From: a bacterium
GTDB taxonomy: Bacteria > Patescibacteriota > Minisyncoccia > Phycocordibacterales > Phycocordibacteraceae
DNA length: 64,000 nucleotides
Reading direction: 5' to 3'
NCBI GenBank assembly: GCA_037200965.1
Contig: JBBCGK010000001.1
Span: 768,001-832,000, forward strand
The translations under genes and the position numbers were made by a program. This document shows, one piece after another, positions 20,061-63,403 of this stretch (position 1 is the stretch's first letter; each line of letters opens with the position of its first letter). The notes beneath the pieces are model-generated. The model made no database searches and was not told where the DNA came from. It saw only the letters and a program-made list of their open reading frames with translations.

Positions 20061-20735
20061 ATGGCTAAGAGCGATAGAAAACAAGAAGCAAGGCGACTTC
20101 GCGCCCGCGGACTTATGTTTGCTGAGATTGCAAAGCGGTTGAATATTTCAAAGTCCACGGCGGGGCTTTGGTGTAAAGATTTGAAGCTCACTTCGATCGC
20201 TTTAGCAAAGCTTGCAAAAAAAGCTGGAGACGGACGCCAAAGAGGAAGGCTACTCGGTTCTCAAGCGATCAAGCGGGCAAGACTCGAAAGAGTGAATCAG
20301 GCAGAAACAGAGGCCAGGAAACTCATTGGAATGATCAATGCCCGCGATTTACTGGTAGCAGGTGCTGCGTTGTATTGGGGTGAAGGAAGTAAAGATAGAA
20401 AGCTAACTTTTACCAACACCAATCCTCACATGTTGCGATTTGTTCTTAAGTGGTTTTTCGATTCCTTGAACGTTGCTCATGAGGACATTCGTGTCTGGAT
20501 ATACATTAATTCTACTCACGCGGATAGAAGCACCCAGATTTTCCGTTTTTGGAGACGCGAACTGGGATTGCCAGCTGCTCAATTTGCCAATCCGGTTTTA
20601 CTTAAAGCAAGACAAGGAAAGGTTTACGAAAAACGCGAAACGTATTATGGTGTAGTATCGCTTCGGATAAAGAAAAGTACCGAATTGCAGTACAAGATTC
20701 TTGGTCTTATAAAAGCGATGCAATTGCCGGCGTAG
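20061..20735 (+). CDS. HTH + LAGLIDADG-like homing-endonuclease-like protein (tentative); low-GC insertion.
   Basis: N-terminal sigma-70 region-4-like HTH (LRARGLMFAEIAKRLNISKSTAGLW). Central LLVAGAALYWGEGSK resembles a LAGLIDADG motif. GC is clearly lower than the flanks. The last 10 nt overlap the 5' acceptor stem of tRNA-Met. Confidence 0.4.
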   Translation: MAKSDRKQEARRLRARGLMFAEIAKRLNISKSTAGLWCKDLKLTSIALAKLAKKAGDGRQRGRLLGSQAIKRARLERVNQAETEARKLIGMINARDLLVAGAALYWGEGSKDRKLTFTNTNPHMLRFVLKWFFDSLNVAHEDIRVWIYINSTHADRSTQIFRFWRRELGLPAAQFANPVLLKARQGKVYEKRETYYGVVSLRIKKSTELQYKILGLIKAMQLPA

Positions 20736-20800
20736 TTCAAGGGTTAGAACGAGACACTCATAAAGTCTAGACGGTGGCTCGACTCCACCCGCCGGCACCA
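20726..20800 (+). tRNA. tRNA-Met (anticodon CAT), CCA encoded.
   Basis: Hand-folded: acceptor GCCGGCG/CGCCGGC; D-arm GTTC-AAGGGTTA-GAAC; anticodon loop CTCATAA with U33 and A37; T-arm GGTGG-CTCGACT-CCACC; discriminator A followed by CCA. Confidence 0.75.
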
Positions 20801-20833
20801 AGATTCGGGCAGGACACGGTATACTGGGGGTGA

Positions 20834-21088
20834 ATGGACATACCTCTCCTCATCATCGGCACGATCGGCGCAGCAGTCCTTCTTGCGGCGTTCGCGCTTG
20901 AGCAAACGGGCGTGATTACTGACAAATCCTATGCCTACGACTGTGCCAATGTCATCGGTTCGGGGCTTTTGGGCTGGTATGCGTTCGTGGGCCACGTCTA
21001 CCCATTCGTCGTGCTTGAGGTGGTATGGGCTACGGTTGCCCTATACTACATCCTCGGCCGTCTTGCCGGGAAGGGCAAAGGCGGGTAA
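20834..21088 (+). CDS. Small membrane protein (2-3 TM), hypothetical.
   Basis: 84 aa, strongly hydrophobic, with good codon usage. Confidence 0.4.
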   Translation: MDIPLLIIGTIGAAVLLAAFALEQTGVITDKSYAYDCANVIGSGLLGWYAFVGHVYPFVVLEVVWATVALYYILGRLAGKGKGG

Positions 21089-21149
21089 AGTATCGAAGCT
21101 GCGAGAACGCGATGCCCGCGTCGTCTCGCGGCATAAGCTGGTTTTCAAT

Positions 21150-21221
21150 TGCGGCTGTAGCTCAACGGTAGAGCGCCGCCCTGTCACGGCGGAGGCCGTG
21201 GGGTCAGCACCCATCAGCCGC
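21150..21221 (+). tRNA. tRNA-Asp (anticodon GTC), no encoded CCA, atypical T-loop.
   Basis: Acceptor GCGGCTG/CAGCCGC; D-arm GCTC-AACGGTA-GAGC; anticodon stem CCGCC/GGCGG with loop CTGTCAC. The T-arm GTGGG-GTCAGCA-CCCAT deviates from the TTCGAAT consensus. Confidence 0.6.
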
Positions 21222-21223
21222 GC

Positions 21224-21260
21224 AAAATGAATGAGCCCCGTACGGGGCTCATTCATTTTG
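21224..21260. terminator. Bidirectional rho-independent terminator.
   Basis: AAAATGAATGAGCCCCG-TAC-CGGGGCTCATTCATTTT, a 17-bp stem flanked by A and T runs, between tRNA-Asp (+) and the convergent gene at 21282 (-). Confidence 0.7.
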
Positions 21261-21281
21261 CGCGGCGCTTAGCAGCAAACG

Positions 21282-21662
21282 CTACGCCCCTCTCCTGTGC
21301 CGCTGTGCGTCGAGTTCCCGGAGTTCCTTGAATTCCTCCTGGAGCACGTCGAGCGCCTTATCCTCAAGATCCTCCGCATCGATAAATGAGTTGCGCGCGG
21401 GCTTGATAGCGCGGATGACCTCGTCAAGCTTCAGGTGTATCGCATGCGCGTCGCGGTTCTGCGTATTTTGGATGAGAAAGACCATGAGGAAGGTGAGGAT
21501 GGTCGTTCCCGTGTTAATGACGAGCTGCCAGGTGTCCGAGAAGCCGAAGACAGGTCCTGTTGCTCCCCAGACGACGATCGCAAGCACGGCGACGACAAAA
21601 GCTCCCGGCGAGCCGGTAGCCTTGCTGGTCCAGTGCGCGATGCGCCTGAAGAGGCTGCTCAT
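21282..21662 (-). CDS. Low-affinity iron permease family protein (small bacterial Fet4-like, PF04120-type).
   Basis: Two TM helices and the conserved TILTFLMVFLIQNTQNRD stretch typical of this family. Assigned from memory. Confidence 0.55.
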   Translation of the reverse strand: MSSLFRRIAHWTSKATGSPGAFVVAVLAIVVWGATGPVFGFSDTWQLVINTGTTILTFLMVFLIQNTQNRDAHAIHLKLDEVIRAIKPARNSFIDAEDLEDKALDVLQEEFKELRELDAQRHRRGA

Positions 21663-21678
21663 GAATATCGCTGGCAGC

Positions 21679-21906
21679 CTACGACCACTTCGCCCCCTGG
21701 TGGTTTTCCTTGCAGCACTTGCAGCCTCCGAGCTTTACGGCGCCGATGACGATGAGAAGGACCGGCCAGATAACGGCAACGGCTCCCATGGTGAGGATAT
21801 CCCAAGTCTGAAGTAGGAATGCGAGACCGATGAGAATGATGGCGACCGGCACGACCTTGTGGTGCGGGCACTTGCAGACTTTCATTTCCATATGATTGTT
21901 TTCCAT
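21679..21906 (-). CDS. Small Cys/His-rich membrane protein (hypothetical).
   Basis: KVCKCPHHK ... TM ... TM ... GGCKCCKENH, which may bind metal. Confidence 0.4.
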   Translation of the reverse strand: MENNHMEMKVCKCPHHKVVPVAIILIGLAFLLQTWDILTMGAVAVIWPVLLIVIGAVKLGGCKCCKENHQGAKWS

Positions 21907-22037
21907 GCGGTACGGTTACGGTTTATAAGCAACGCTTTAAGGATAGCACGTGGGCTTTAGGCGCCAGCGGGCCGGGTGCGTTACTTTGGCTTCACTGCGT
22001 TACGTGCTAGCATCGGCTAGTTCCTTTCGGGGAACAT

Positions 22038-22110
22038 GCCGATGTAGCTCAGCTGGTAGAGCAACTCCATGGTAAGGAGTAGGTCCCCGGTTCAAATCCG
22101 GGCATCGGCT
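22038..22110 (+). tRNA. tRNA-Thr (anticodon GGT).
   Basis: GCCGATG acceptor; D-arm GCTC-AGCTGGTA-GAGC; anticodon stem ACTCC/GGAGT with loop ATGGTAA; T-arm CCCGG-TTCAAAT-CCGGG. Confidence 0.85.
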
Positions 22111-22180
22111 CAGAGGTAAAAAGCACTCGTAGTCCAGCTCACTGTTGTGAGAGTGCGTTCTGTGGTAAAAATCTAGGTAC

Positions 22181-22253
22181 GCCGGAGTAGCTCAGTTGGT
22201 AGAGCACGTCATTCGTAATGACGGGGTCGTCGGTTCAATCCCGACCTCCGGCT
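22181..22253 (+). tRNA. tRNA-Thr (anticodon CGT).
   Basis: GCCGGAG acceptor; D-arm GCTC-AGTTGGTA-GAGC; anticodon stem CGTCA/TGACG with loop TTCGTAA; T-arm GTCGG-TTCAATC-CCGAC. Confidence 0.85.
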
Positions 22254-33168: not shown

Positions 33169-33242
33169 TGCCAGATCGTCTAAAGGTAGGACTCGAGACT
33201 CTGAATCTCGCTATCTAGGTTCGAATCCTAGTCTGGCAGCCA
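33169..33242 (+). tRNA. tRNA-Gln (anticodon CTG), CCA encoded.
   Basis: Acceptor TGCCAGA/TCTGGCA; anticodon stem CGAGA/TCTCG with loop CTCTGAA; T-arm CTAGG-TTCGAAT-CCTAG; G-CCA 3' end. Confidence 0.75.
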
Positions 33243-55064: not shown

Positions 55065-55676
55065 ATGGACGCTGTCAGCAGGGTAAACCGCGCATACTAC
55101 GATGCGCATGCCAAGAAATGGTCGGAGTCCCATAACAATTCTTTTTGGCACGAGGAAGCGTTTCGATCGTTCATGCGCTACCTGCCAGCCGGGGCGTCGG
55201 TGCTCGATATCGGCGCGGCGTCCGGCATTCATGTGCCGCTGTTTCTCGGCATGGGCCGGATGCTCAAATATTTCGGTATCGATATCAGCAGGAATTTCCT
55301 CAAAATCGCCAAGCGGCGCTATCCGCAGATGCGGTTCGCATACGGGGACATTTTAGACGCAGAGACGCTTCCAAAAAAGAAATTCGATGCGTTTTGGGCG
55401 GCTGCGGTGCTTCAGCATATTCCGCTTGCGCAGTGGCCGGAAGCGCTCTCCAATATCGAGCGCCATATGACACGCGGCGCTATCGGCTATCTTACGGTTC
55501 CGGAAGAGCGACCGAGCCCGGCCTCGGAAAAAGATCGGCGCTATTTCGAGCTGTTCGATGATAAGAAATTCCGCGCGGTACTTGTACCGAGGAAATGGCG
55601 GATACTCAAGGCAGGGGCAAGGAAAGGAAAGACCGGAGGGGTGGTATGGCGGTGGTATATCGTGAAGCTGCCGTAG
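55065..55676 (+). CDS. Class I SAM-dependent methyltransferase.
   Basis: Motif I VLDIGAASG and a post-I acidic residue (GIDIS). ATG at 55065. Confidence 0.65.
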   Translation: MDAVSRVNRAYYDAHAKKWSESHNNSFWHEEAFRSFMRYLPAGASVLDIGAASGIHVPLFLGMGRMLKYFGIDISRNFLKIAKRRYPQMRFAYGDILDAETLPKKKFDAFWAAAVLQHIPLAQWPEALSNIERHMTRGAIGYLTVPEERPSPASEKDRRYFELFDDKKFRAVLVPRKWRILKAGARKGKTGGVVWRWYIVKLP

Positions 55677-55712: not shown

Positions 55713-56273
55713 GTGATAAAAGTCTTTATCGTTCATGGATTTCAAGGAGCGCCCAATAGCGGGTGGAAGCCGTGGCTTATGGAAGAGTGCGCCAAACAAG
55801 GTATCTACGCCTGCGCGCTTTCGATGCCAAGCCCCGGCAGCCCGGTTCCTTCTGAGTGGGTCGAAGAAATCTCCCGACACGTCGATGCAAACAAAAAGGA
55901 CCCGATATACCTTATCGGACACAGCCTCGGCGCCACCGCTATCCTGCGATATCTTGAAACAACAAAAGCAAAGAATATACAGGGTGCAGTCTTTGTTTCC
56001 GCGCCTGTCTTCAAAAGCACAAAGCGAAAGGTGCAAGCTTTCCTTAAAAAACCTTTCGACTACGAAGCTATCAGAGCAAGGGTGCCGAAGATGGTCGTTA
56101 TCCATGGCGATAACGACAAGAGCGTGTCCGCGGACCAGGGAAAGACTTTGGCCAGGGAATTGGGAGCGAAACTGGTGCTTATCAAGAACGGCGGGCACCT
56201 GAACGGCTCCGCAGGCTGGCACAAGCTCCCGCAGTGCCGGGATGCTTTGCTGGGAATGATAAATGGCGGTTAG
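55713..56273 (+). CDS. Alpha/beta hydrolase, serine hydrolase family (RBBP9/YdeN-like).
   Basis: GHSLG nucleophile elbow, a C-terminal HGDNDKSV (Asp), and GGHLN (His). Confidence 0.7.
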   Translation: MIKVFIVHGFQGAPNSGWKPWLMEECAKQGIYACALSMPSPGSPVPSEWVEEISRHVDANKKDPIYLIGHSLGATAILRYLETTKAKNIQGAVFVSAPVFKSTKRKVQAFLKKPFDYEAIRARVPKMVVIHGDNDKSVSADQGKTLARELGAKLVLIKNGGHLNGSAGWHKLPQCRDALLGMINGG

Positions 56274-56282
56274 AGGGCTTTT

Positions 56283-56984
56283 ATGCAAAAGAACATTCTC
56301 ATCACCGGCAGGCCAGGGAGCGGGAAGTCGACGCTCCTGCGGAAACTAATCGGTCGTATTCCGGCAAAGGAAGGGTTTGTCACGAACGAAATCCTTGGCG
56401 AACACGGGCGGCTAGGTTTTGAGGTAGAAACCCGTTCCGGAAGCAAGGCGGTCTTGGCGCACATCAATTTCAACACCCCGCGCAAGGTTTCCAAGTATTT
56501 CGTCGATATCGGCAGCCTCGAGTCGATGCTTCCCGCAGTTTCCGACTTCAAGGACGGCGGTATCCTTTATCTAGACGAGATCGGGCAGATGCAGCTTTTT
56601 TCGGAACGCTTCAAAGATCTGGTCTTGCGGTACCTGGACGCCCGGAATACCTGTATCGCTACCCTTTCCTCTGTATTCGAGGATGGCTTTACAGATGCCA
56701 TCAGGAAGCGGGACGACATAGTCCTGGTCGAGATTTCGGCAGCAAACAGGGAAGAGCAGGAGGTGTTTATAACTCAGCTTCTGAAGAAGATCGAAAAAGC
56801 GAGAAAGTACAGTTCCGAACCCGAGCGGTTCACCCGCACGGAATCGGGAATAGAACTGCACTCGGAGCATGGCACGAGAACGCTGGTTCATACGGAAGGA
56901 AAGTGGCACTGCGATTGCGAATTCTTCAAACGATACGGGATCTGCAGCCATGCTATAGCTGCCGGGGAATTTGCTAGGATGTAG
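56283..56984 (+). CDS. P-loop NTPase (THEP1 / NTPase_1-like) fused to a C-terminal SWIM zinc finger.
   Basis: Walker A ITGRPGSGKSTL, Walker B ILYLDEIG, and a C-terminal CDCEFFKRYGICSHAIA (a CxC...CxH SWIM pattern). Confidence 0.6.
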   Translation: MQKNILITGRPGSGKSTLLRKLIGRIPAKEGFVTNEILGEHGRLGFEVETRSGSKAVLAHINFNTPRKVSKYFVDIGSLESMLPAVSDFKDGGILYLDEIGQMQLFSERFKDLVLRYLDARNTCIATLSSVFEDGFTDAIRKRDDIVLVEISAANREEQEVFITQLLKKIEKARKYSSEPERFTRTESGIELHSEHGTRTLVHTEGKWHCDCEFFKRYGICSHAIAAGEFARM

Positions 56985-57452: not shown

Positions 57453-58046
57453 ATGGAAACCGAAATAGAAGCCAAGTTCGCGGACATACATACTGAAACG
57501 CTTCGCGCCAGGCTCAAGGAGATCGGCGCGGTTCTTGAATACCCCGAAACGCTGATGCGGCGCAGGAATTTCGACTATCCCGACGGCCGTCTTAATACGA
57601 TCGGCGGGTGGATCCGCATCCGGGATGAGGGGAACAAAGTCACCTTAAGCTATAAGCAGCTTAACGACCGGACGCTCCACGGAACGAAGGAGGTGTCGGT
57701 GGACGTAAGCGATTTTGACAAGGCCGCGGATTTCCTGACTTCGATCGGGCTCGAGGCGAAATCCTATCAAGAGACGAAACGGGAGAAATGGATGTATCAA
57801 GACATGGAAATCACCATCGATACCTGGCCCTGGATTCCGCCGTTCATGGAGCTTGAAGGATCGAGCGAAGAAGCGCTTAAAGATGCCGCAGCCGCACTTG
57901 GTCTCGACTGGTCCCGCGCCATGCACGGAAGCGTTGAGACGGTATATCAGATGCACTACGATTTCCCCGAATCGGAAATCGATGCGTGGGGAAGCATCAC
58001 GTTCGTCCCGGAGCCGGACTGGCTCCTTACACGGAAGAAGGCATAG
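57453..58046 (+). CDS. CYTH domain protein (second paralog).
   Basis: N-terminal METEIEAKF (ExExK), with DTWPW and MELEGS acidic strands. Clear paralog of 27664..28248. Confidence 0.75.
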   Translation: METEIEAKFADIHTETLRARLKEIGAVLEYPETLMRRRNFDYPDGRLNTIGGWIRIRDEGNKVTLSYKQLNDRTLHGTKEVSVDVSDFDKAADFLTSIGLEAKSYQETKREKWMYQDMEITIDTWPWIPPFMELEGSSEEALKDAAAALGLDWSRAMHGSVETVYQMHYDFPESEIDAWGSITFVPEPDWLLTRKKA

Positions 58047-58062: not shown

Positions 58063-58503
58063 ATGATCTATCTTGAGCGGCCGGAAGATTTCAATCCGAA
58101 ATTCGAGATCGGGAGCTGTTTTCTTAAGCGGGACGGAAAGTTCCTCCTGCTGTTGCGGCAGGATCATAAGCCGGAAGGGAATACCTGGGGCGTCCCGGCA
58201 GGGAAGATAGATGCGGGAGAGACTCCTGCGCAGGCCACAGCGAGAGAAATGGCGGAAGAAACGGGATACTCGGCAGCCCCGAAAGACCTGCGGTTTTTCA
58301 GGACAGGATATTCCCGCTTTCCCGAGTACGACTTTATCTATCACATGTTCTTCTTGAATCTGGCACGTGATCACGAAGTAGTGATTGACCCAGCTTCGCA
58401 CAAGGATTTCAGATGGGTAACCCCTGCGGAAGCGTTTGCGATGCCGCTTATCGGGGATCTCGAGGACTATATCAAGCTGTTTTACGAAGCTGATACACTT
58501 TAA
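58063..58503 (+). CDS. NUDIX hydrolase.
   Basis: Nudix box GKIDAGETPAQATAREMAEETGY (GX5EX7REUXEEXGU). ATG near 58062-58064. Confidence 0.8.
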   Translation: MIYLERPEDFNPKFEIGSCFLKRDGKFLLLLRQDHKPEGNTWGVPAGKIDAGETPAQATAREMAEETGYSAAPKDLRFFRTGYSRFPEYDFIYHMFFLNLARDHEVVIDPASHKDFRWVTPAEAFAMPLIGDLEDYIKLFYEADTL

Positions 58504-58505
58504 GG

Positions 58506-59024
58506 ATGCTCGGAGTAAAGCGAGGGACGGTAGTATTGGTTCCGCATAATCCGGAGTGGCCCCCGCTGTTCGATAAAGAGAAAAAACTACTTCTTGAAGC
58601 ATTCGGAGACAGAATAAAAGCCATAGAGCATATCGGAAGCACCGCGATTCCCGGTATGCCCGCAAAGCCGATCATAGATATCAATGTGGCCGTCAAATCG
58701 CTTGATGATATCGGTGATTTCATCCAGATACTTCCCGGGCTTGGATATGAATATATTCCGGAGAGACGTTTTGCTGACCGTCAGTTCTTTCCCAAGGGTC
58801 CGCCGGAATATAGAACCCATCATTTGAATCTCGTGGAAATAACCAGCAAGACCGGATGGATGAATGCTCTTGCATTCCGGAACTATCTGCGGAAGAATTC
58901 TTTAGCTAGGGAAGAATATCGGAAACTGAAGGAATCGTTGGCAGACCAGTATGCTGATAATCGTGAGGAGTATACCGAGCGCAAGAGCGCCTTCGTACAT
59001 GAAATACTGAAGAAAGCCCAGTGA
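58506..59024 (+). CDS. GrpB family protein (UPF0157; nucleotidyltransferase-fold).
   Basis: HIGSTAIPGMPAKPIIDINV signature. About 172 aa. Confidence 0.7.
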   Translation: MLGVKRGTVVLVPHNPEWPPLFDKEKKLLLEAFGDRIKAIEHIGSTAIPGMPAKPIIDINVAVKSLDDIGDFIQILPGLGYEYIPERRFADRQFFPKGPPEYRTHHLNLVEITSKTGWMNALAFRNYLRKNSLAREEYRKLKESLADQYADNREEYTERKSAFVHEILKKAQ

Positions 59025-59096: not shown

Positions 59097-59534
59097 ATGG
59101 CGCGGACGAGCACCTATCTCAATTTCACGAACAAGAGCGAAGAGGCGTTTACTTTCTATAAATCAGTCTTCGGCGGCGAATTCACGGGAGGCATACACCG
59201 GATGGGCGATGTCCCGCCGCAGGAAGGCGTCCCGGCGCTTGCGGAGGCCGATAGGAATCTCGTAATGCATATCGAGCTCTCGATACTCGGCGGGCACGTT
59301 CTCATGGGAACCGATGCACCGGAATCGATGGGCTTCAAGCTCGTCGAGGGCAATAACGTGCACGTCAATCTCGAGCCGGATACGAAAGAAGAAGCCGAGC
59401 GACTTTTCACGGCCCTTTCGGAAGGAGGGAAAGTATCGATGCCGCTCCAAATGATGTTCTGGGGCGCGTACTTCGGGTCGTTCTCCGACAAGTACGGAAT
59501 CAACTGGATGGTGAACTATAGCTCAAAGGATTAG
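59097..59534 (+). CDS. VOC superfamily / PhnB-like (3-demethylubiquinone-9 3-methyltransferase-domain) protein.
   Basis: YLNF ... EEAFTFYKSVFG ... GHVLMGTDAP ... MFWGAYFGSFSDKYGINWMV pattern. Confidence 0.65.
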   Translation: MARTSTYLNFTNKSEEAFTFYKSVFGGEFTGGIHRMGDVPPQEGVPALAEADRNLVMHIELSILGGHVLMGTDAPESMGFKLVEGNNVHVNLEPDTKEEAERLFTALSEGGKVSMPLQMMFWGAYFGSFSDKYGINWMVNYSSKD

Positions 59535-59538
59535 CCCC

Positions 59539-60285
59539 ATGGCCAAGCCGACAACGAATGAGTTTTTCGATCTCAATAAATTTCCGAAGGAGCCTGGCAT
59601 CGTGTATTTCGCGCTCTCGATGCCGCTTCTGAATAACACTCAGAGCCCGCAGAACTGCTACGGCGCGGACGAGCACCTCATATCCAAGATTCAGGTCTCG
59701 AATGTCGGGGCGCAGGTCGTCTATACCGACAGCTTGTATCTCTACAGCGGCGAGCCCGCGATGGAACTGAAGCTCAAGCATCAGAAGCTTATCGAAGAGC
59801 ACAAGCAGGGATGGCTCAACCTCATCAAGAAGAATATTTATATCGTCCCGAGCGGCTTTACTTTCATGACCTGGAGCCAGCTTCTCCTCGACTGCCCGAA
59901 GTTCTCCTCGTACCTTGTCGAATTCCGCCGCATCTTTGAAAATGATGCGCAGCTCCGCGGGTATGTCACGCTCGATATCCAAGGAACCGGAAGGGAAGTG
60001 AATGAATACAGTATCGGCTACATGCTCGAAGAAATACTGACGGATTACCTGGTCGCCAAGGGCCACATGCGTCTCCAGAACGATTACACCAAGGACAAGG
60101 AGCAGTGGATACTCAACTGCTACCACGGAAAACCCCATCGCTCCCATATCTATCTGCACCAGCGGAATTTCTTTAAGCTCGACAATGCGAAGAACGTATA
60201 CCAGAACGCGTGGTATGACCTGGTGGCCAAAAAGCTCTACGAATTCGACCGGCTCGATATTGATACGTTCGACTTCGGGAAGTGA
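59539..60285 (+). CDS. Hypothetical protein (last gene of the 56283..60285 operon).
   Basis: 248-aa ORF starting 5 nt after the upstream stop. No known motif. Confidence 0.45.
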   Translation: MAKPTTNEFFDLNKFPKEPGIVYFALSMPLLNNTQSPQNCYGADEHLISKIQVSNVGAQVVYTDSLYLYSGEPAMELKLKHQKLIEEHKQGWLNLIKKNIYIVPSGFTFMTWSQLLLDCPKFSSYLVEFRRIFENDAQLRGYVTLDIQGTGREVNEYSIGYMLEEILTDYLVAKGHMRLQNDYTKDKEQWILNCYHGKPHRSHIYLHQRNFFKLDNAKNVYQNAWYDLVAKKLYEFDRLDIDTFDFGK

Positions 60286-61430: not shown

Positions 61431-62039
61431 ATGAGACTGTACTACTCCCCGGGCGCCTGCTCTCTTTCCCCGCATATCGTCGCCCGCGAAGCGGGGCTTC
61501 CGGTCGAACTTGATAAAGTCGATTTTAACGACGGACGGAAAACCGAGGACGGCTCGACGCTCGGGGAGGTGAACCCGAAGGGATATATCCCCGCACTGCG
61601 GCTCGATGACGGTCCGGTCCTTACCGAAGGAGTGGCGATCGTCCAGTACCTCGCCGATCAGGCGCCCGAAAAGAAGCTCATGCCGGAGCGGGGAACCACG
61701 GACTACTATCGCGCGCTCGAATGGCTTACGTTTATAAGCTCGGAGCTCCACAAGGGCTTCAGCCCCCTCTATAACCCCGCGATCGCGGAAGATGCGAAGA
61801 AAGCGGCAATTGAGAAAATCGGGAAGCGCGTAAGCTACGTGGAAGGAATGCTCGCGGGGAAGCAGTACCTTCTCGGAGACTCCTTCATGATTCCCGATGC
61901 CTATCTCTATACGATTCTGCGCTGGGCAAAGCGCTTCGAGATCGACCTGTCGGTATATCCGAACGTTACGGCGTTCATGGAACGGATGAGGGCGCGCCCG
62001 GGAGTTTCCGCGGCGCTTGCGGAAGAGGGCCTCGAATAA
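61431..62039 (+). CDS. Glutathione S-transferase (beta/GstB-like).
   Basis: N-terminal thioredoxin-like [16 protein letters not shown], a C-terminal helical domain, 202 aa. Confidence 0.85.
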
Positions 62040-62529
62040 CATGCAGAAAATCACCCCCTTTCTCTGGTTTAACGATACGGCGGAAGAGGCCGCGAACTTC
62101 TACGTATCCGTATTCAAGAACTCGAAGCTCGGCCGTATTGCCCGCTATCAGGGGAAGGAAGCGGAGCAAGTCTCGGGACGGCCGGAAGGTTCGGTGATGA
62201 CGGTCGGGTTCGAACTTGACGGTCAGGCGTTCACGGCGCTCAACGGCGGCCCCTTTTTCAAGTTTACGGAAGCGATCTCGTTCGTCGTGAACTGCGAAGG
62301 GCAGGAGGAGGTGGACGAGTTCTGGGACAAGCTCTCGGAAGGCGGGGAGAAGGGCCGGTGCGGATGGCTTAAGGATAAGTTCGGCGTATCCTGGCAGATC
62401 GTTCCTGTGGCGCTTGCGAGGCTCATGAGCGATCCTGATCCGGAGAAGTCAAAGCACGTAACGGCGGCGATGCTCCGGATGACCAAGCTCGACGTAGCGA
62501 CGCTTGAAGCGGCGTACGAAGAGGGATAA
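62017..62529 (+). CDS. VOC superfamily / PhnB-like protein (second paralog).
   Basis: [22 protein letters not shown] ... [14 protein letters not shown] pattern. Overlaps the GST stop by 23 nt. Confidence 0.65.
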
Positions 62530-62572: not shown

Positions 62573-63403
62573 ATGGCTGAAAAGCGCCTGGAATCCGTCC
62601 ATGTCGTCCCGGGATATACCTTCTTCTATTGGGGGTTTACGCTTCCCAAGAAGGACTACGGTTCGTTTACGAAGCACTTCCGCCTCAAAGCCGGAAGCCT
62701 TACCACCCGCATCAGGCTCCTGATCGCGGGCAAGACATATCCCGCCAGGATCCGGCTTACCCGCATCACGACGAAGAACTCGCCGAACCGGGAAGTGGTG
62801 CAGATCTACTATGAGCGCGATTACGACACGCTGAAAGCGCTTCGGAAGTTCTTCATCTACAGCTACGCCTCCACGATCCGCAAGAGCAAGCCCAAGCTCA
62901 AGGAACTCATGGAGCTTGAACACATGGGCGGCGATTTGTTTAAGGTAGTCGCGCTCTCGAAGCAGGAAACGGACTTCGACGCGATGTTCCGTTTTATGGA
63001 GGAGAAGAACCTGTTCGAATTCTGGAGGGACGCGAAGAAGGGCAAGCGCGAATCTTTCTTTCTCGATTTCGCGCGGCACTGGATACCGGCGAAAGATCTC
63101 AGCAAGTATCGCGAGCGCGTGAACGTGATCTACGTCCTCTACAGTGAAAAGGATAAGCACCTGTATGTCGGCAAGGCGAACCGTTTCGGCGCGCGCCTTA
63201 AGGAAGGGCAGGGGCGTATCGGCCTTAAGAGCTGGGACAAGTTCATGTATTTCGAAATCGATCCTAAGTACGCGCACGCGCTCGAGGAAATCGAGGCGTA
63301 TACGATCAGGGTGCTCGCGTCGCTTTTCGACAACGACGTCAGGATGGCACCGCTCGGGCGGAAGGTGGAGCGGCTGGTGAACCGGCAGCTGAGGAGAAAA
63401 TAG
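62573..63403 (+). CDS. Hypothetical protein with C-terminal GIY-YIG-like motif.
   Basis: VIYVLYSEKDKHLYVGKANRFGARL resembles the GIY...YIG...R core. The N-terminal region is unknown. ATG at 62573. Confidence 0.4.
   Translation: MAEKRLESVHVVPGYTFFYWGFTLPKKDYGSFTKHFRLKAGSLTTRIRLLIAGKTYPARIRLTRITTKNSPNREVVQIYYERDYDTLKALRKFFIYSYASTIRKSKPKLKELMELEHMGGDLFKVVALSKQETDFDAMFRFMEEKNLFEFWRDAKKGKRESFFLDFARHWIPAKDLSKYRERVNVIYVLYSEKDKHLYVGKANRFGARLKEGQGRIGLKSWDKFMYFEIDPKYAHALEEIEAYTIRVLASLFDNDVRMAPLGRKVERLVNRQLRRK

What the first reader, a model, noticed from the sequence alone, without database searches (positions are those of the whole stretch)
56283..56984. THEP1-type NTPase fused to a SWIM zinc finger
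A small NTPase of the THEP1/NTPase_1 type (Walker A GRPGSGKST, Walker B YLDEIG) carries a C-terminal CxC-x(n)-CxH SWIM module. I do not recall this fusion as a described architecture. It is the first gene of the nucleotide operon and could act as its nucleic-acid or protein-targeting regulatory subunit.
Basis: partly seen in the sequence, partly recalled or inferred. Interest (0 to 1): 0.5.

Follow-up and report, generated by a model that had tools for sequence, protein, structure and literature searches.

The report
THEP1 NTPase with built-in mini-SWIM finger
This gene really does encode a small nucleotide-hydrolysing enzyme (THEP1 type) fused to a zinc-finger module (SWIM type); the fusion recurs in ultra-small bacteria and at least one ultra-small archaeon, databases label it only as an NTPase, and it hints that this long-orphan enzyme family acts on a macromolecule, but it is not the regulator of a neighbouring operon.

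Summary

The fusion is common in Patescibacteria/CPR metagenomes and also occurs on a contig carrying an archaeal-type L11 gene. Sources name it only "nucleoside-triphosphatase". No paper in the searched library holds both SWIM and THEP1.

The tail is a mobile ~70-aa "mini-SWIM" module. Most of its best-scoring relatives are stand-alone small proteins; others are tandem pairs or other fusions.

The operon reading fails. The gene starts 9 bp after the upstream gene, and 16 homologous loci share no conserved neighbour.

Most likely it is an autonomous, slow P-loop NTPase that the SWIM module docks onto a nucleic acid or a protein. That mechanism is inferred, not shown. It is a new architectural variant of known domains, of moderate interest.

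The parts
56283..56984 (+). Complete THEP1-SWIM gene (233 codons plus TAG stop).
   Evidence: ORF list and sequence. An identical protein is in GenBank as MEJ0054006.1, 'MAG: nucleoside-triphosphatase [bacterium]'.
56273..56277 (+). GAGGG Shine-Dalgarno-like site, 5 nt before the ATG. It overlaps the last base of the upstream gene's TAG stop (56271-56273).
   Evidence: Read directly from the sequence.
56283..56774 (+). THEP1/NTPase_1 P-loop domain (residues 1 to about 164), including the family-specific antiparallel beta extension.
   Evidence: Pfam PF03266 E=4.8e-31. The AF2 model has pLDDT 95.6 and pTM 0.90. Foldseek finds 1YE8 with target-normalised TM 0.86 and rmsd 2.1 A, and also 2I3B.
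56307..56333 (+). Walker A / P-loop GRPGSGKST (residues 9-17).
   Evidence: G9, G14 and K15 are invariant in the family and shared with non-fused THEP1 proteins.
56562..56585 (+). Walker B ILYLDEIG (residues 94-101). E99 aligns with the catalytic glutamate of the ASCE class of P-loop NTPases.
   Evidence: D98 and E99 are invariant. They align with D106/E107 of Aquifex THEP1, whose role is described in PMC1079890.
56775..56981 (+). Mini-SWIM module (residues 165-233): a helix carrying K169-x-x-K172-A173-x-x-Y176, the linker SEPERF, four beta-strands, then the zinc-binding knuckle and helix.
56910..56951 (+). Predicted zinc ligands C210, C212, C221 and H223 (CxC-x8-CxH).
   Evidence: All four are invariant in alignments A1 and A2. 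Pfam SWIM aligns residues 207-227.

Best explanation
The gene encodes one compact protein with two parts. The first is a catalytically intact THEP1-family P-loop NTPase (ASCE class, a variant of the RecA fold). Its C-terminal helix runs straight into the second part, a ~70-residue mini-SWIM zinc-finger module. These points are shown here: both domains are real; the fusion is an ancient, conserved family in Patescibacteria/CPR and in at least one DPANN archaeon; the module is a mobile domain that also exists on its own; and the gene has no conserved genomic partner. The following is inferred. THEP1 enzymes are very slow, base-unspecific NTPases with an empty cleft beside the gamma-phosphate, so they probably need a co-substrate or activator. 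I propose that the SWIM module supplies in cis the docking surface for that macromolecule. The macromolecule is most likely a nucleic acid (an RNA or DNA end). NTP binding and hydrolysis would then be coupled to, or stimulated by, the bound target. The gene acts autonomously and is not a regulator of the adjacent CYTH/NUDIX genes. My confidence is about 0.95 for the architecture, about 0.9 for autonomy, and about 0.35 for the nucleic-acid-docking mechanism. The figure given in the confidence field is for the mechanism.
For: Architecture.

Catalytic competence: Walker A, Walker B D98/E99, R43, G45, F46, Y72, S107, F110, R143, D145 and R156 are conserved, and all are shared with 14 non-fused THEP1 proteins.

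Rigid two-domain unit: the full-length AF2 model has pTM 0.90, with one continuous helix over residues 156-177.

Charge partition: the fused THEP1 core is acidic (median pI 5.3) and the tail is basic (median pI 9.06). By contrast, 8 of 14 non-fused relatives are basic, and Aquifex THEP1 has pI 9.9 with a conserved basic patch beside the nucleotide cleft. Its crystallographers proposed that patch as a DNA/RNA co-substrate site (PMC1079890).

Module-intrinsic residues: K169, K172 and R182 are conserved across the whole mini-SWIM family, including 97 stand-alone proteins. They are therefore features of the module itself, not adaptations to THEP1.

Contexts of the module elsewhere point to nucleic acids: a gene 2 bp downstream of recQ and a fusion to a Swt1-type HEPN domain, a family named after an RNA endonuclease.

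Known SWIM partners include SWI2/SNF2 ATPases and MuDR transposases (PMC10236294). The Shu2 SWIM domain contacts Shu1, which has a RecA-like fold (PMC5727457).

Human NTPCR was recovered as a 5'-triphosphate-RNA interactor in an affinity-proteomics screen (PMC8636641).

Autonomy.
Confidence: 0.35

Rival explanations
1. The SWIM module recruits a protein partner. Here the SWIM module docks the NTPase onto a protein rather than a nucleic acid, and the NTPase acts as a switch or remodeller of that partner. This would resemble the SWIM-mediated contacts in Shu2-Shu1 and in the ZSWIM8 ubiquitin-ligase receptor.
For: The two best structural matches of the tail are SWIM domains that work in protein complexes. 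The Shu2 SWIM domain contacts the RecA-like Shu1 (PMC5727457). Slow NTPases with micromolar Km values often behave as switches (PMC1079890).
Against: No gene co-occurs with the fusion in 16 loci, so no candidate partner emerges. Stand-alone modules are also solitary genes. In the fusion, the RecA-like partner of the SWIM may already be the THEP1 core itself.
Confidence: 0.2
2. The enzyme is a free-nucleotide (house-cleaning or salvage) NTPase, and the SWIM module is only a structural zinc clasp that stabilises a small enzyme. It would have no targeting role, much like the zinc-bearing lid of some adenylate kinases.
For: THEP1 enzymes hydrolyse free ATP and GTP in vitro (PMC1079890). Nucleotide-handling genes turn up near several homologues: HD_3, Ham1p-like, NUDIX, dCMP deaminase, UPRTase and NTPase_I-T. 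The window itself has CYTH and NUDIX next door. The model shows the two domains as one rigid body.
Against: Turnover of 5-9 x 10^-3 per second is very slow for a metabolic enzyme. The module exists and is conserved as an independent protein, with exposed invariant K169, K172 and R182 equivalents, so it has a function of its own. The nucleotide-gene neighbours are heterogeneous, and each family is rare: NUDIX is 4 of 142 ORFs and HD_3 is 2 of 142. Related non-fused THEP1 proteins occur in MAGs carrying the same kinds of labels (Uhrbacteria, Saccharibacteria, Woesearchaeota) without any clasp.
Confidence: 0.25
3. This is the first reader's hypothesis: the protein is the targeting or regulatory subunit of a 'nucleotide operon' formed with the downstream PNPOx-like, CYTH, NUDIX and GrpB genes.
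For: In this window the genes are co-directional and separated by only 2-16 bp. CYTH, NUDIX and THEP1 all act on phosphoanhydride substrates.
Against: The tight co-directional string begins well upstream, with a methyltransferase gene at 55065 and a serine-hydrolase gene at 55713. It continues past 63 kb through unrelated genes, including an ion channel and a GST. The gene is not first: the gap to the upstream gene is 9 bp and holds no promoter-like site. None of 16 homologous loci repeats the arrangement.
Confidence: 0.05
4. The protein is a component of an anti-phage or conflict system. An NTPase plus SWIM is a theme in some defence systems, and the module is fused to a HEPN domain in one relative.
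For: P0174 combines two mini-SWIM modules with a Swt1-like HEPN domain, and its HEPN region (residues 170-292) matches the candidate defence family PDC-M34B. PADLOC contains SWIM-bearing models, and the tandem protein P0138 weakly hits PDC-S62 and SWIM_XIII.
Against: The window protein's PADLOC matches either cover only the P-loop (residues 3-32, 4-27 and 5-19) or are marginal, such as Avs2 at E=0.0018 and 14 bits. Neighbours are ordinary small metabolic genes, not defence islands. Full-length conservation of 50-70% identity across many CPR-labelled homologues looks like housekeeping rather than arms-race turnover.
Confidence: 0.05

Closest known systems
THEP1 of Aquifex aeolicus (aq_1292, PDB 1YE8; COG1618)
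   Same: It has the same P-loop fold, including the extra antiparallel beta-sheet extension (Foldseek E=1.5e-12, target-normalised TM 0.86, rmsd 2.1 A, 30% identity). It shares Walker A, Walker B DE with the catalytic glutamate, and the DEIGxM(E/Q)L motif.
   Different: Aquifex THEP1 is a single-domain, 178-residue, strongly basic protein (pI 9.9). The window protein has an acidic core (family median pI 5.3) plus a ~56-residue addition after the last THEP1 helix. It scores 112 bits against NCBIfam's NTPase equivalog model, whose cut-off is 156, so it is not an equivalog.
Human NTPCR / HCR-NTPase (PDB 2I3B)
   Same: It belongs to the same family and fold (phmmer E=1.3e-13; Foldseek E=1.4e-11). 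It is a slow NTPase of unknown physiological role (PMC2700126 abstract). It was recovered as a 5'-ppp-RNA interactor (PMC8636641).
   Different: It has no SWIM module and is eukaryotic.
SWIM-domain proteins with solved structures: Shu2 (6DEX; Shu complex) and ZSWIM8 (9RWZ)
Unnamed stand-alone and tandem 'mini-SWIM' proteins, for example the 180-aa P0303 (MBU6335665.1, 'SWIM zinc finger family protein', Chloroflexota), the 79-aa P0135 (Anaerolineales) and the 80-aa P0126 (Magasanikbacteria)
   Same: They carry the same ~70-residue module, with K-x-x-K-A-x-x-Y on the helix, an (E)P.R linker and W.C.C.FF-x5-CSH with a fixed x8 spacer. E-values against the tail profile go down to 1e-31.
   Different: They have no NTPase domain. 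They occur as solitary genes, tandem duplications, or fusions to HEPN_Swt1 or DUF6968. Their overall charge is neutral (median pI 6.5).
Bacterial SWI2/SNF2 ATPases carrying SWIM
   Same: They set a precedent for SWIM combined with an ASCE-class, RecA-like NTPase in prokaryotes (PMC10236294 citing Makarova et al. 2002).
   Different: They have two-lobed helicase-type motors of many hundreds of residues, not a 165-residue THEP1 core. I did not compare them here by sequence or structure.

Membership tests
THEP1 / NTPase_1 (PF03266, COG1618) | The Pfam PF03266 profile match is above the gathering score. | tested here: met
   108.3 bits against a cut-off of 23.9, E=4.8e-31, residues 4-158.
THEP1 / NTPase_1 (PF03266, COG1618) | The Walker A P-loop is of normal length (GxxGxGK[ST]). 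| tested here: met
   G9-RPGSG-K15-S16-T17. G9, G14 and K15 are invariant in 50 homologues.
THEP1 / NTPase_1 (PF03266, COG1618) | Walker B carries the ASCE catalytic glutamate (hhhhDE) followed by IGxM. | tested here: met
   ILYLD98-E99-IGQM. D98 and E99 are invariant and align to D106/E107 of 1YE8.
THEP1 / NTPase_1 (PF03266, COG1618) | The fold is a RecA-like three-layer sandwich with the additional four-stranded antiparallel extension. | tested here: met
   The AF2 model has pLDDT 95.6 and strands at residues 29-39, 42-50, 55-60 and 67-74. Foldseek's top hits are 1YE8 (target-normalised TM 0.86) and 2I3B.
THEP1 / NTPase_1 (PF03266, COG1618) | The protein is equivalent to the canonical single-domain NTPase (NCBIfam NF010248 equivalog). 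| tested here: not met
   112.1 bits against a cut-off of 156. It is a divergent subfamily member, not an equivalog.
THEP1 / NTPase_1 (PF03266, COG1618) | The protein has slow ATPase/GTPase activity. | not testable with these tools
   This needs a purified-enzyme assay. Activity is known for Aquifex THEP1 (PMC1079890).
SWIM zinc finger (PF04434) | The CxCxnCxH signature is present, with n in the typical range of 6-16. | tested here: met
   C210-D-C212-x8-C221-S-H223. All four ligands are invariant. The typical range is quoted from PMC5727457.
SWIM zinc finger (PF04434) | The Pfam PF04434 profile match is above the gathering score. | tested here: inconclusive
   The whole protein scores 17.7 bits, below the 19.6 cut-off. 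The isolated tail scores 19.8 bits, just above it, with E=5.9e-4. At family level 27 of 33 tails hit at E<=0.01, the best at 1.5e-6. The result is marginal for this sequence and clear for the family.
SWIM zinc finger (PF04434) | The fold has beta-strands carrying CxC, followed by a helix that starts at CxH, and resembles solved SWIM domains. | tested here: met
SWIM zinc finger (PF04434) | The domain binds one zinc ion stoichiometrically. | not testable with these tools
   This needs metal analysis of purified protein.
Known anti-phage defence proteins (PADLOC-DB) | There is a profile match extending beyond the generic P-loop. | tested here: not met
   Three of the four matches (mad8, Csx3, JetC) cover only P-loop residues 3-32, 4-27 and 5-19. 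The fourth, Avs2, is marginal (E=0.0018, 14 bits, residues 82-187).
Conserved operon with CYTH/NUDIX ('nucleotide operon') | The same neighbours recur next to orthologues in other genomes. | tested here: not met
   In 15 loci, all-against-all BLAST of flanking ORFs shows no neighbour shared by more than 3 loci. In 16 loci, 142 ORFs match 150 Pfam families, with NUDIX in 4 ORFs.

The most novel reading that the evidence does not exclude
The THEP1-SWIM fusion may be a 'Rosetta stone' for the 20-year-old orphan THEP1/NTPCR family. On this reading, these enzymes do not act on free nucleotides. They act on the 5'-triphosphate (or another terminal nucleotide) of an RNA or DNA chain, and in CPR bacteria and DPANN archaea the chain is held by the mini-SWIM module. 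The module would then define a previously unrecognised small nucleic-acid-binding zinc-finger family that also works alone, in tandem, and with HEPN nucleases. The fusion would have moved between ultra-small archaea and bacteria by inter-domain gene transfer.
Probability: 0.15. Interest if true: 0.6.

Novelty: new variant of a known kind. Interest (0 to 1): 0.4.

Why it matters
THEP1/NTPCR is conserved from archaea to humans, has had solved structures since 2005-2007, and still has no accepted biological function. A conserved natural fusion to a macromolecule-recognition zinc finger argues that the family works on or with a macromolecule. It also supplies a compact, easily expressed protein on which that idea can be tested, by measuring zinc content and checking whether nucleic acids stimulate NTP hydrolysis.

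The work also delineates a ~70-residue mini-SWIM module. It has 416 representatives at 50% identity clustering. Current annotation mostly leaves it as 'hypothetical' or folds it silently into 'nucleoside-triphosphatase'.

The fusion adds one more gene shared between CPR bacteria and DPANN archaea.

None of this is a new kind of system. It is a new arrangement of two known domains.

Tried and rejected
1. Operon or regulator idea. I rejected this after comparing 16 homologous loci and after the promoter/terminator scan, which found no more sites than shuffled sequence and none just upstream of the gene.

2. Split-gene ('THEP1 next to a separate SWIM gene') search around 19 further THEP1-related loci from the genome scan. 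No SWIM-like ORF turned up there; the only further hit was the divergent fusion in L021.

3. Partner hunting through stand-alone mini-SWIM genes. They are solitary in Anaerolineales and in a second contig. One lies 2 bp after recQ in Magasanikbacteria. That is a single case, so I treat it only as a hint.

4. Defence-system membership. PADLOC gave only P-loop-limited or marginal matches.

5. Sequence-profile search of the tail against PDB. Nothing came back below E=1.

7. Foldseek against AFDB50, to see how UniProt annotates the architecture. The library was not available.

8. Literature. No paper holds both SWIM and THEP1, and no functional study of bacterial THEP1 exists beyond the Aquifex work.

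9. Taxon names from cluster look-ups. These were mostly empty.

11. I could not read the model's coordinates. The interdomain interface and the zinc-site geometry were therefore not inspected.

Full report
**1. What is there**

The window holds an uninterrupted ORF at exactly the stated coordinates: 56283..56984, + strand, ATG start, TAG stop, 233 aa. A GAGGG ribosome-binding-like site lies 5 nt upstream. The identical protein is deposited as MEJ0054006.1, 'MAG: nucleoside-triphosphatase [bacterium]', from a 960-kb contig.

The closest relatives are 60-70% identical. Where they are named, they come from Paceibacterota, Nomurabacteria and Spechtbacteria. The organism is therefore probably a member of the Patescibacteria/CPR. 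This is an inference from homologue names. The window's G+C of 56% is noted as being on the high side; that comparison rests on my own knowledge.

**2. The NTPase half**

- Pfam NTPase_1 matches residues 4-158 at E=4.8e-31.
- The only solved structures found by sequence are Aquifex THEP1 (1YE8, E=3e-17) and human NTPCR (2I3B, E=1e-13).
- An AlphaFold2 model built on 50 homologues is very confident, with pLDDT 95.6 and pTM 0.90.
- Foldseek's two top PDB matches for that model are the same two proteins. For 1YE8 the target-normalised TM-score is 0.86 and the rmsd is 2.1 A.
- Walker A (G9...G14-K15-S-T) and Walker B (D98-E99) are invariant.
- So are the other residues that the fused family shares with 14 non-fused THEP1 proteins.
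- E99 aligns with the catalytic glutamate that places THEP1 in the ASCE class of P-loop NTPases (PMC1079890).

Nothing suggests a dead enzyme. The protein falls short of NCBIfam's equivalog threshold for the canonical NTPase (112 bits against 156), which fits a divergent subfamily.

**3. The SWIM half**

The tail reads W208-H-C-D-C-EFFKRYGI-C-S-H223, that is CxC-x8-CxH. Four lines of evidence agree that it is a SWIM module.

- Conservation. The motif is present in 114 of the 120 best homologues. Four of the six exceptions are truncated, one diverges in its last residues, and one full-length protein has a C-to-W substitution. C210, C212, C221, S222 and H223 are invariant in a 50-sequence alignment whose mean column identity is 60%.
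- Profile. Pfam SWIM scores 17.7 bits on the full protein, just under the 19.6 cut-off. It scores 19.8 bits on the isolated tail, and 27 of 33 family tails hit at E<=0.01, the best at 1.5e-6.
- Geometry. CxC sits at the end of a beta-strand and CxH at the start of the final helix.

**4. How common the fusion is, and where it occurs**

The word-indexed search returned 235 clusters, and the top 120 are nearly all 231-252 aa full-length fusions. In GTDB representative genomes the fusion appears in MAGs labelled Paceibacterota, Gracilibacteria, Saccharibacteria, Woesearchaeota and 'archaeon'.

I checked the labels where I could.

- Two loci of the divergent 'TTDHG' subfamily are bacterial. One has GreA; the other has rpsO-pnp and LspA.
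- L012 carries an archaeal-type ribosomal protein L11 about 2 kb from the fusion gene. It scores 186 bits on NF002232 (cut-off 162), against 93 bits on the bacterial L11 model (cut-off 142). That NF002232 is the archaeal-type model is my own knowledge, not stated in the tool output.

On that reading the fusion is present in at least one DPANN archaeon as well as in CPR bacteria. Related MAGs carrying the same kinds of labels also hold plain, non-fused THEP1 genes of 163-187 aa.

**5. The tail is a mobile module**

A profile of the tail was searched against 1.84 billion representative proteins. It found 416 hits at E<=1e-3 and 164 at E<=1e-10. I classified 164 module-bearing proteins, taken from the 150 best representatives plus the 17 hits of the word-indexed search.

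| Class | Number |
|---|---|
| Stand-alone proteins of 115 aa or fewer | 96 |
| THEP1 fusions or fragments of them | 40 |
| Tandem duplications | 13 |
| Other architectures | 15 |

Among the others are a fusion of two modules to a Swt1-type HEPN domain (P0174) and a fusion to DUF6968 (P0150).

In the stand-alone set, 95 of 97 proteins have CxC-x8-CxH with the spacer fixed at 8. The equivalents of K169, K172, A173, Y176, R182, W208, F214 and F215 are conserved alongside the zinc ligands. The helix K-x-x-K-A-x-x-Y therefore belongs to the module and is not THEP1's own C-terminus. In the fusion, the last THEP1 helix and the module's first helix form one continuous helix over residues 156-177.

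Stand-alone genes are solitary in Anaerolineales and in another contig. In Magasanikbacteria one lies 2 bp after recQ.

**6. Genomic context and the operon claim**

In the window the gene sits inside a long co-directional string of tightly packed small genes.

| Gene | Start |
|---|---|
| SAM methyltransferase | 55065 |
| Ser_hydrolase | 55713 |
| THEP1-SWIM | 56283 |
| PNPOx-like | 56987 |
| CYTH | 57453 |
| NUDIX | 58063 |
| GrpB | 58506 |
| PhnB-like | 59097 |
| 248-aa ORF with no family match | 59539 |
| Ion channel | 60493 |
| GST | 61431 |
| Second PhnB-like | 62017 |
| GIY-YIG protein | 62573 |

The gene is not the first in the string. It begins 9 bp after the preceding stop, and no promoter-like site intervenes. 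That scan found no more sites than shuffled sequence, so it carries little weight either way.

The arrangement is not conserved. All-against-all comparison of flanking ORFs in 15 fusion loci finds no neighbour shared by more than three loci. In 16 loci, 142 flanking ORFs hit 150 different Pfam families. The commonest are GNAT (5), ABC/SMC-type ATPases (4-5), NUDIX (4) and BipA (3).

Nucleotide-handling genes do turn up repeatedly near the fusion: HD_3, Ham1p-like, NUDIX, dCMP deaminase, UPRTase and NTPase_I-T. They form a heterogeneous scatter, and I could not test that scatter against a background. PADLOC gives only P-loop-limited or marginal matches.

I conclude that the gene is an autonomous unit.

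**7. How it probably works**

Three things are established.

- Aquifex THEP1 hydrolyses ATP and GTP at only 5-9 x 10^-3 per second, with a micromolar Km.
- It has an unoccupied cleft next to the gamma-phosphate, lined by conserved basic residues.

Human NTPCR was pulled down on 5'-triphosphate RNA (PMC8636641). SWIM domains accompany SWI2/SNF2 ATPases and transposases (PMC10236294). In the Shu complex, the SWIM domain contacts a RecA-like subunit (PMC5727457).

In the fused family the THEP1 core is acidic (median pI 5.3), while the tail is basic (median pI 9.06). Many non-fused relatives are basic overall.

My best reading is inferred, at about 0.35. The SWIM module supplies in cis the docking surface for the macromolecular co-substrate or activator of a slow NTPase, and that macromolecule is most probably a nucleic acid.

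The main rivals are these.

- A protein partner instead of a nucleic acid (0.2).
- A free-nucleotide NTPase in which the SWIM is merely a structural zinc clasp (0.25).
- The operon-regulator idea (0.05).
- A defence-system role (0.05).

One honest weakness remains. The basic tail and the fusion-specific acidic residues E47 and E49 may simply form the interdomain interface. I could not inspect the coordinates to decide.

**8. Comparison with known families, and novelty**

The protein is a member of the THEP1/NTPase_1 family; its profile, motifs and fold are all met. It is a divergent subfamily member, because the equivalog threshold is not met. Its tail belongs to the SWIM family: signature and fold are met, and the profile is marginal for this sequence but clear for the family.

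The combination is not described in the searchable literature. Source annotation does not reflect it. It is nevertheless abundant in metagenomes. That criterion is half met: the fusion is common, but it is not annotated as such.

I class it as a new variant of a known kind. Interest is moderate, at 0.4. Its value is as a clue to, and a tractable test object for, the orphan THEP1/NTPCR family, and as the entry point to an unrecognised mini-SWIM module family.

Noticed in passing
window 56775-56981; proteins P0125-P0137 and P0138-P0284: The tail is one instance of a ~70-aa 'mini-SWIM' module. It has 416 representatives at E<=1e-3. Most of the 164 best-scoring proteins that I classified are stand-alone proteins of 115 aa or fewer, labelled 'hypothetical'. 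Thirteen are tandem duplications, one of which (MBU6335665.1, Chloroflexota) is named 'SWIM zinc finger family protein'. The CxC-x8-CxH spacer is fixed in 95 of 97 stand-alone members.
   Followed up: partly
P0174 (315 aa) and P0150 (169 aa), metagenomic proteins: The mini-SWIM module is fused to a Swt1-like HEPN domain in P0174, whose HEPN region also matches the PADLOC candidate family PDC-M34B. It is fused to DUF6968 in P0150.
   Followed up: partly
L039 1-1409 and L040 3-1360 (Magasanikbacteria contigs): A stand-alone mini-SWIM gene (P0126, 80 aa) starts 2 bp after a RecQ-type helicase gene with RecQ_Zn_bind, RQC, HRDC and HTH_40 domains. This is a single observed case of a possible DNA-repair link.
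   Followed up: partly
L012 3841-4545 and 6315-7025: A THEP1-SWIM gene 47% identical to the window protein lies about 2 kb from an archaeal-type ribosomal protein L11 gene, on a contig labelled Woesearchaeota. The fusion therefore appears to be shared between CPR bacteria and DPANN archaea, possibly by inter-domain transfer.
   Followed up: partly
L021 5995-6819 (MAG labelled Saccharibacteria): This is a divergent 274-aa THEP1-SWIM fusion, 32% identical to the window protein, with a longer ligand spacer (CDC-x17-CSH). The fusion is therefore either old or has arisen more than once.
   Followed up: no
window 59539-60285 (+): A 248-aa ORF lies between the PhnB-like gene and the ion-channel gene, starting 4 bp after the former. 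It has no Pfam or PADLOC match at all.
   Followed up: no
window 57453-58046, 58063-58503 and 58506-59024 (+): CYTH (triphosphate tunnel family), NUDIX and GrpB genes lie back to back, 2-16 bp apart. A GrpB gene also recurs near the fusion in one other locus (L006), and NUDIX recurs in a few loci, but neither does so consistently.
   Followed up: partly
window 59097-59534 and 62017-62529 (+): Two paralogous PhnB-like (3-dmu-9_3-mt / glyoxalase-fold) genes lie 2.5 kb apart. The second overlaps the end of the GST gene (61431-62039) by 23 nt. The same family recurs near the fusion in L005 and L006.
   Followed up: no
window 62573-63403 (+): This is a 276-aa protein whose only match is a C-terminal GIY-YIG nuclease domain (E=4e-5). 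GIY-YIG genes also occur near the fusion in two other loci.
   Followed up: no
window 20726-22253 and 33169-33239 (+): Five tRNA genes were found, four of them clustered within 1.5 kb. The window has no rRNA or any other Rfam family above threshold.
   Followed up: no
window, whole: G+C is 56% overall and 62-63% in the first 12 kb, which seems high (my own knowledge) for the Patescibacteria-like affiliation suggested by the closest homologues. The target gene has 52.7% G+C.
   Followed up: no
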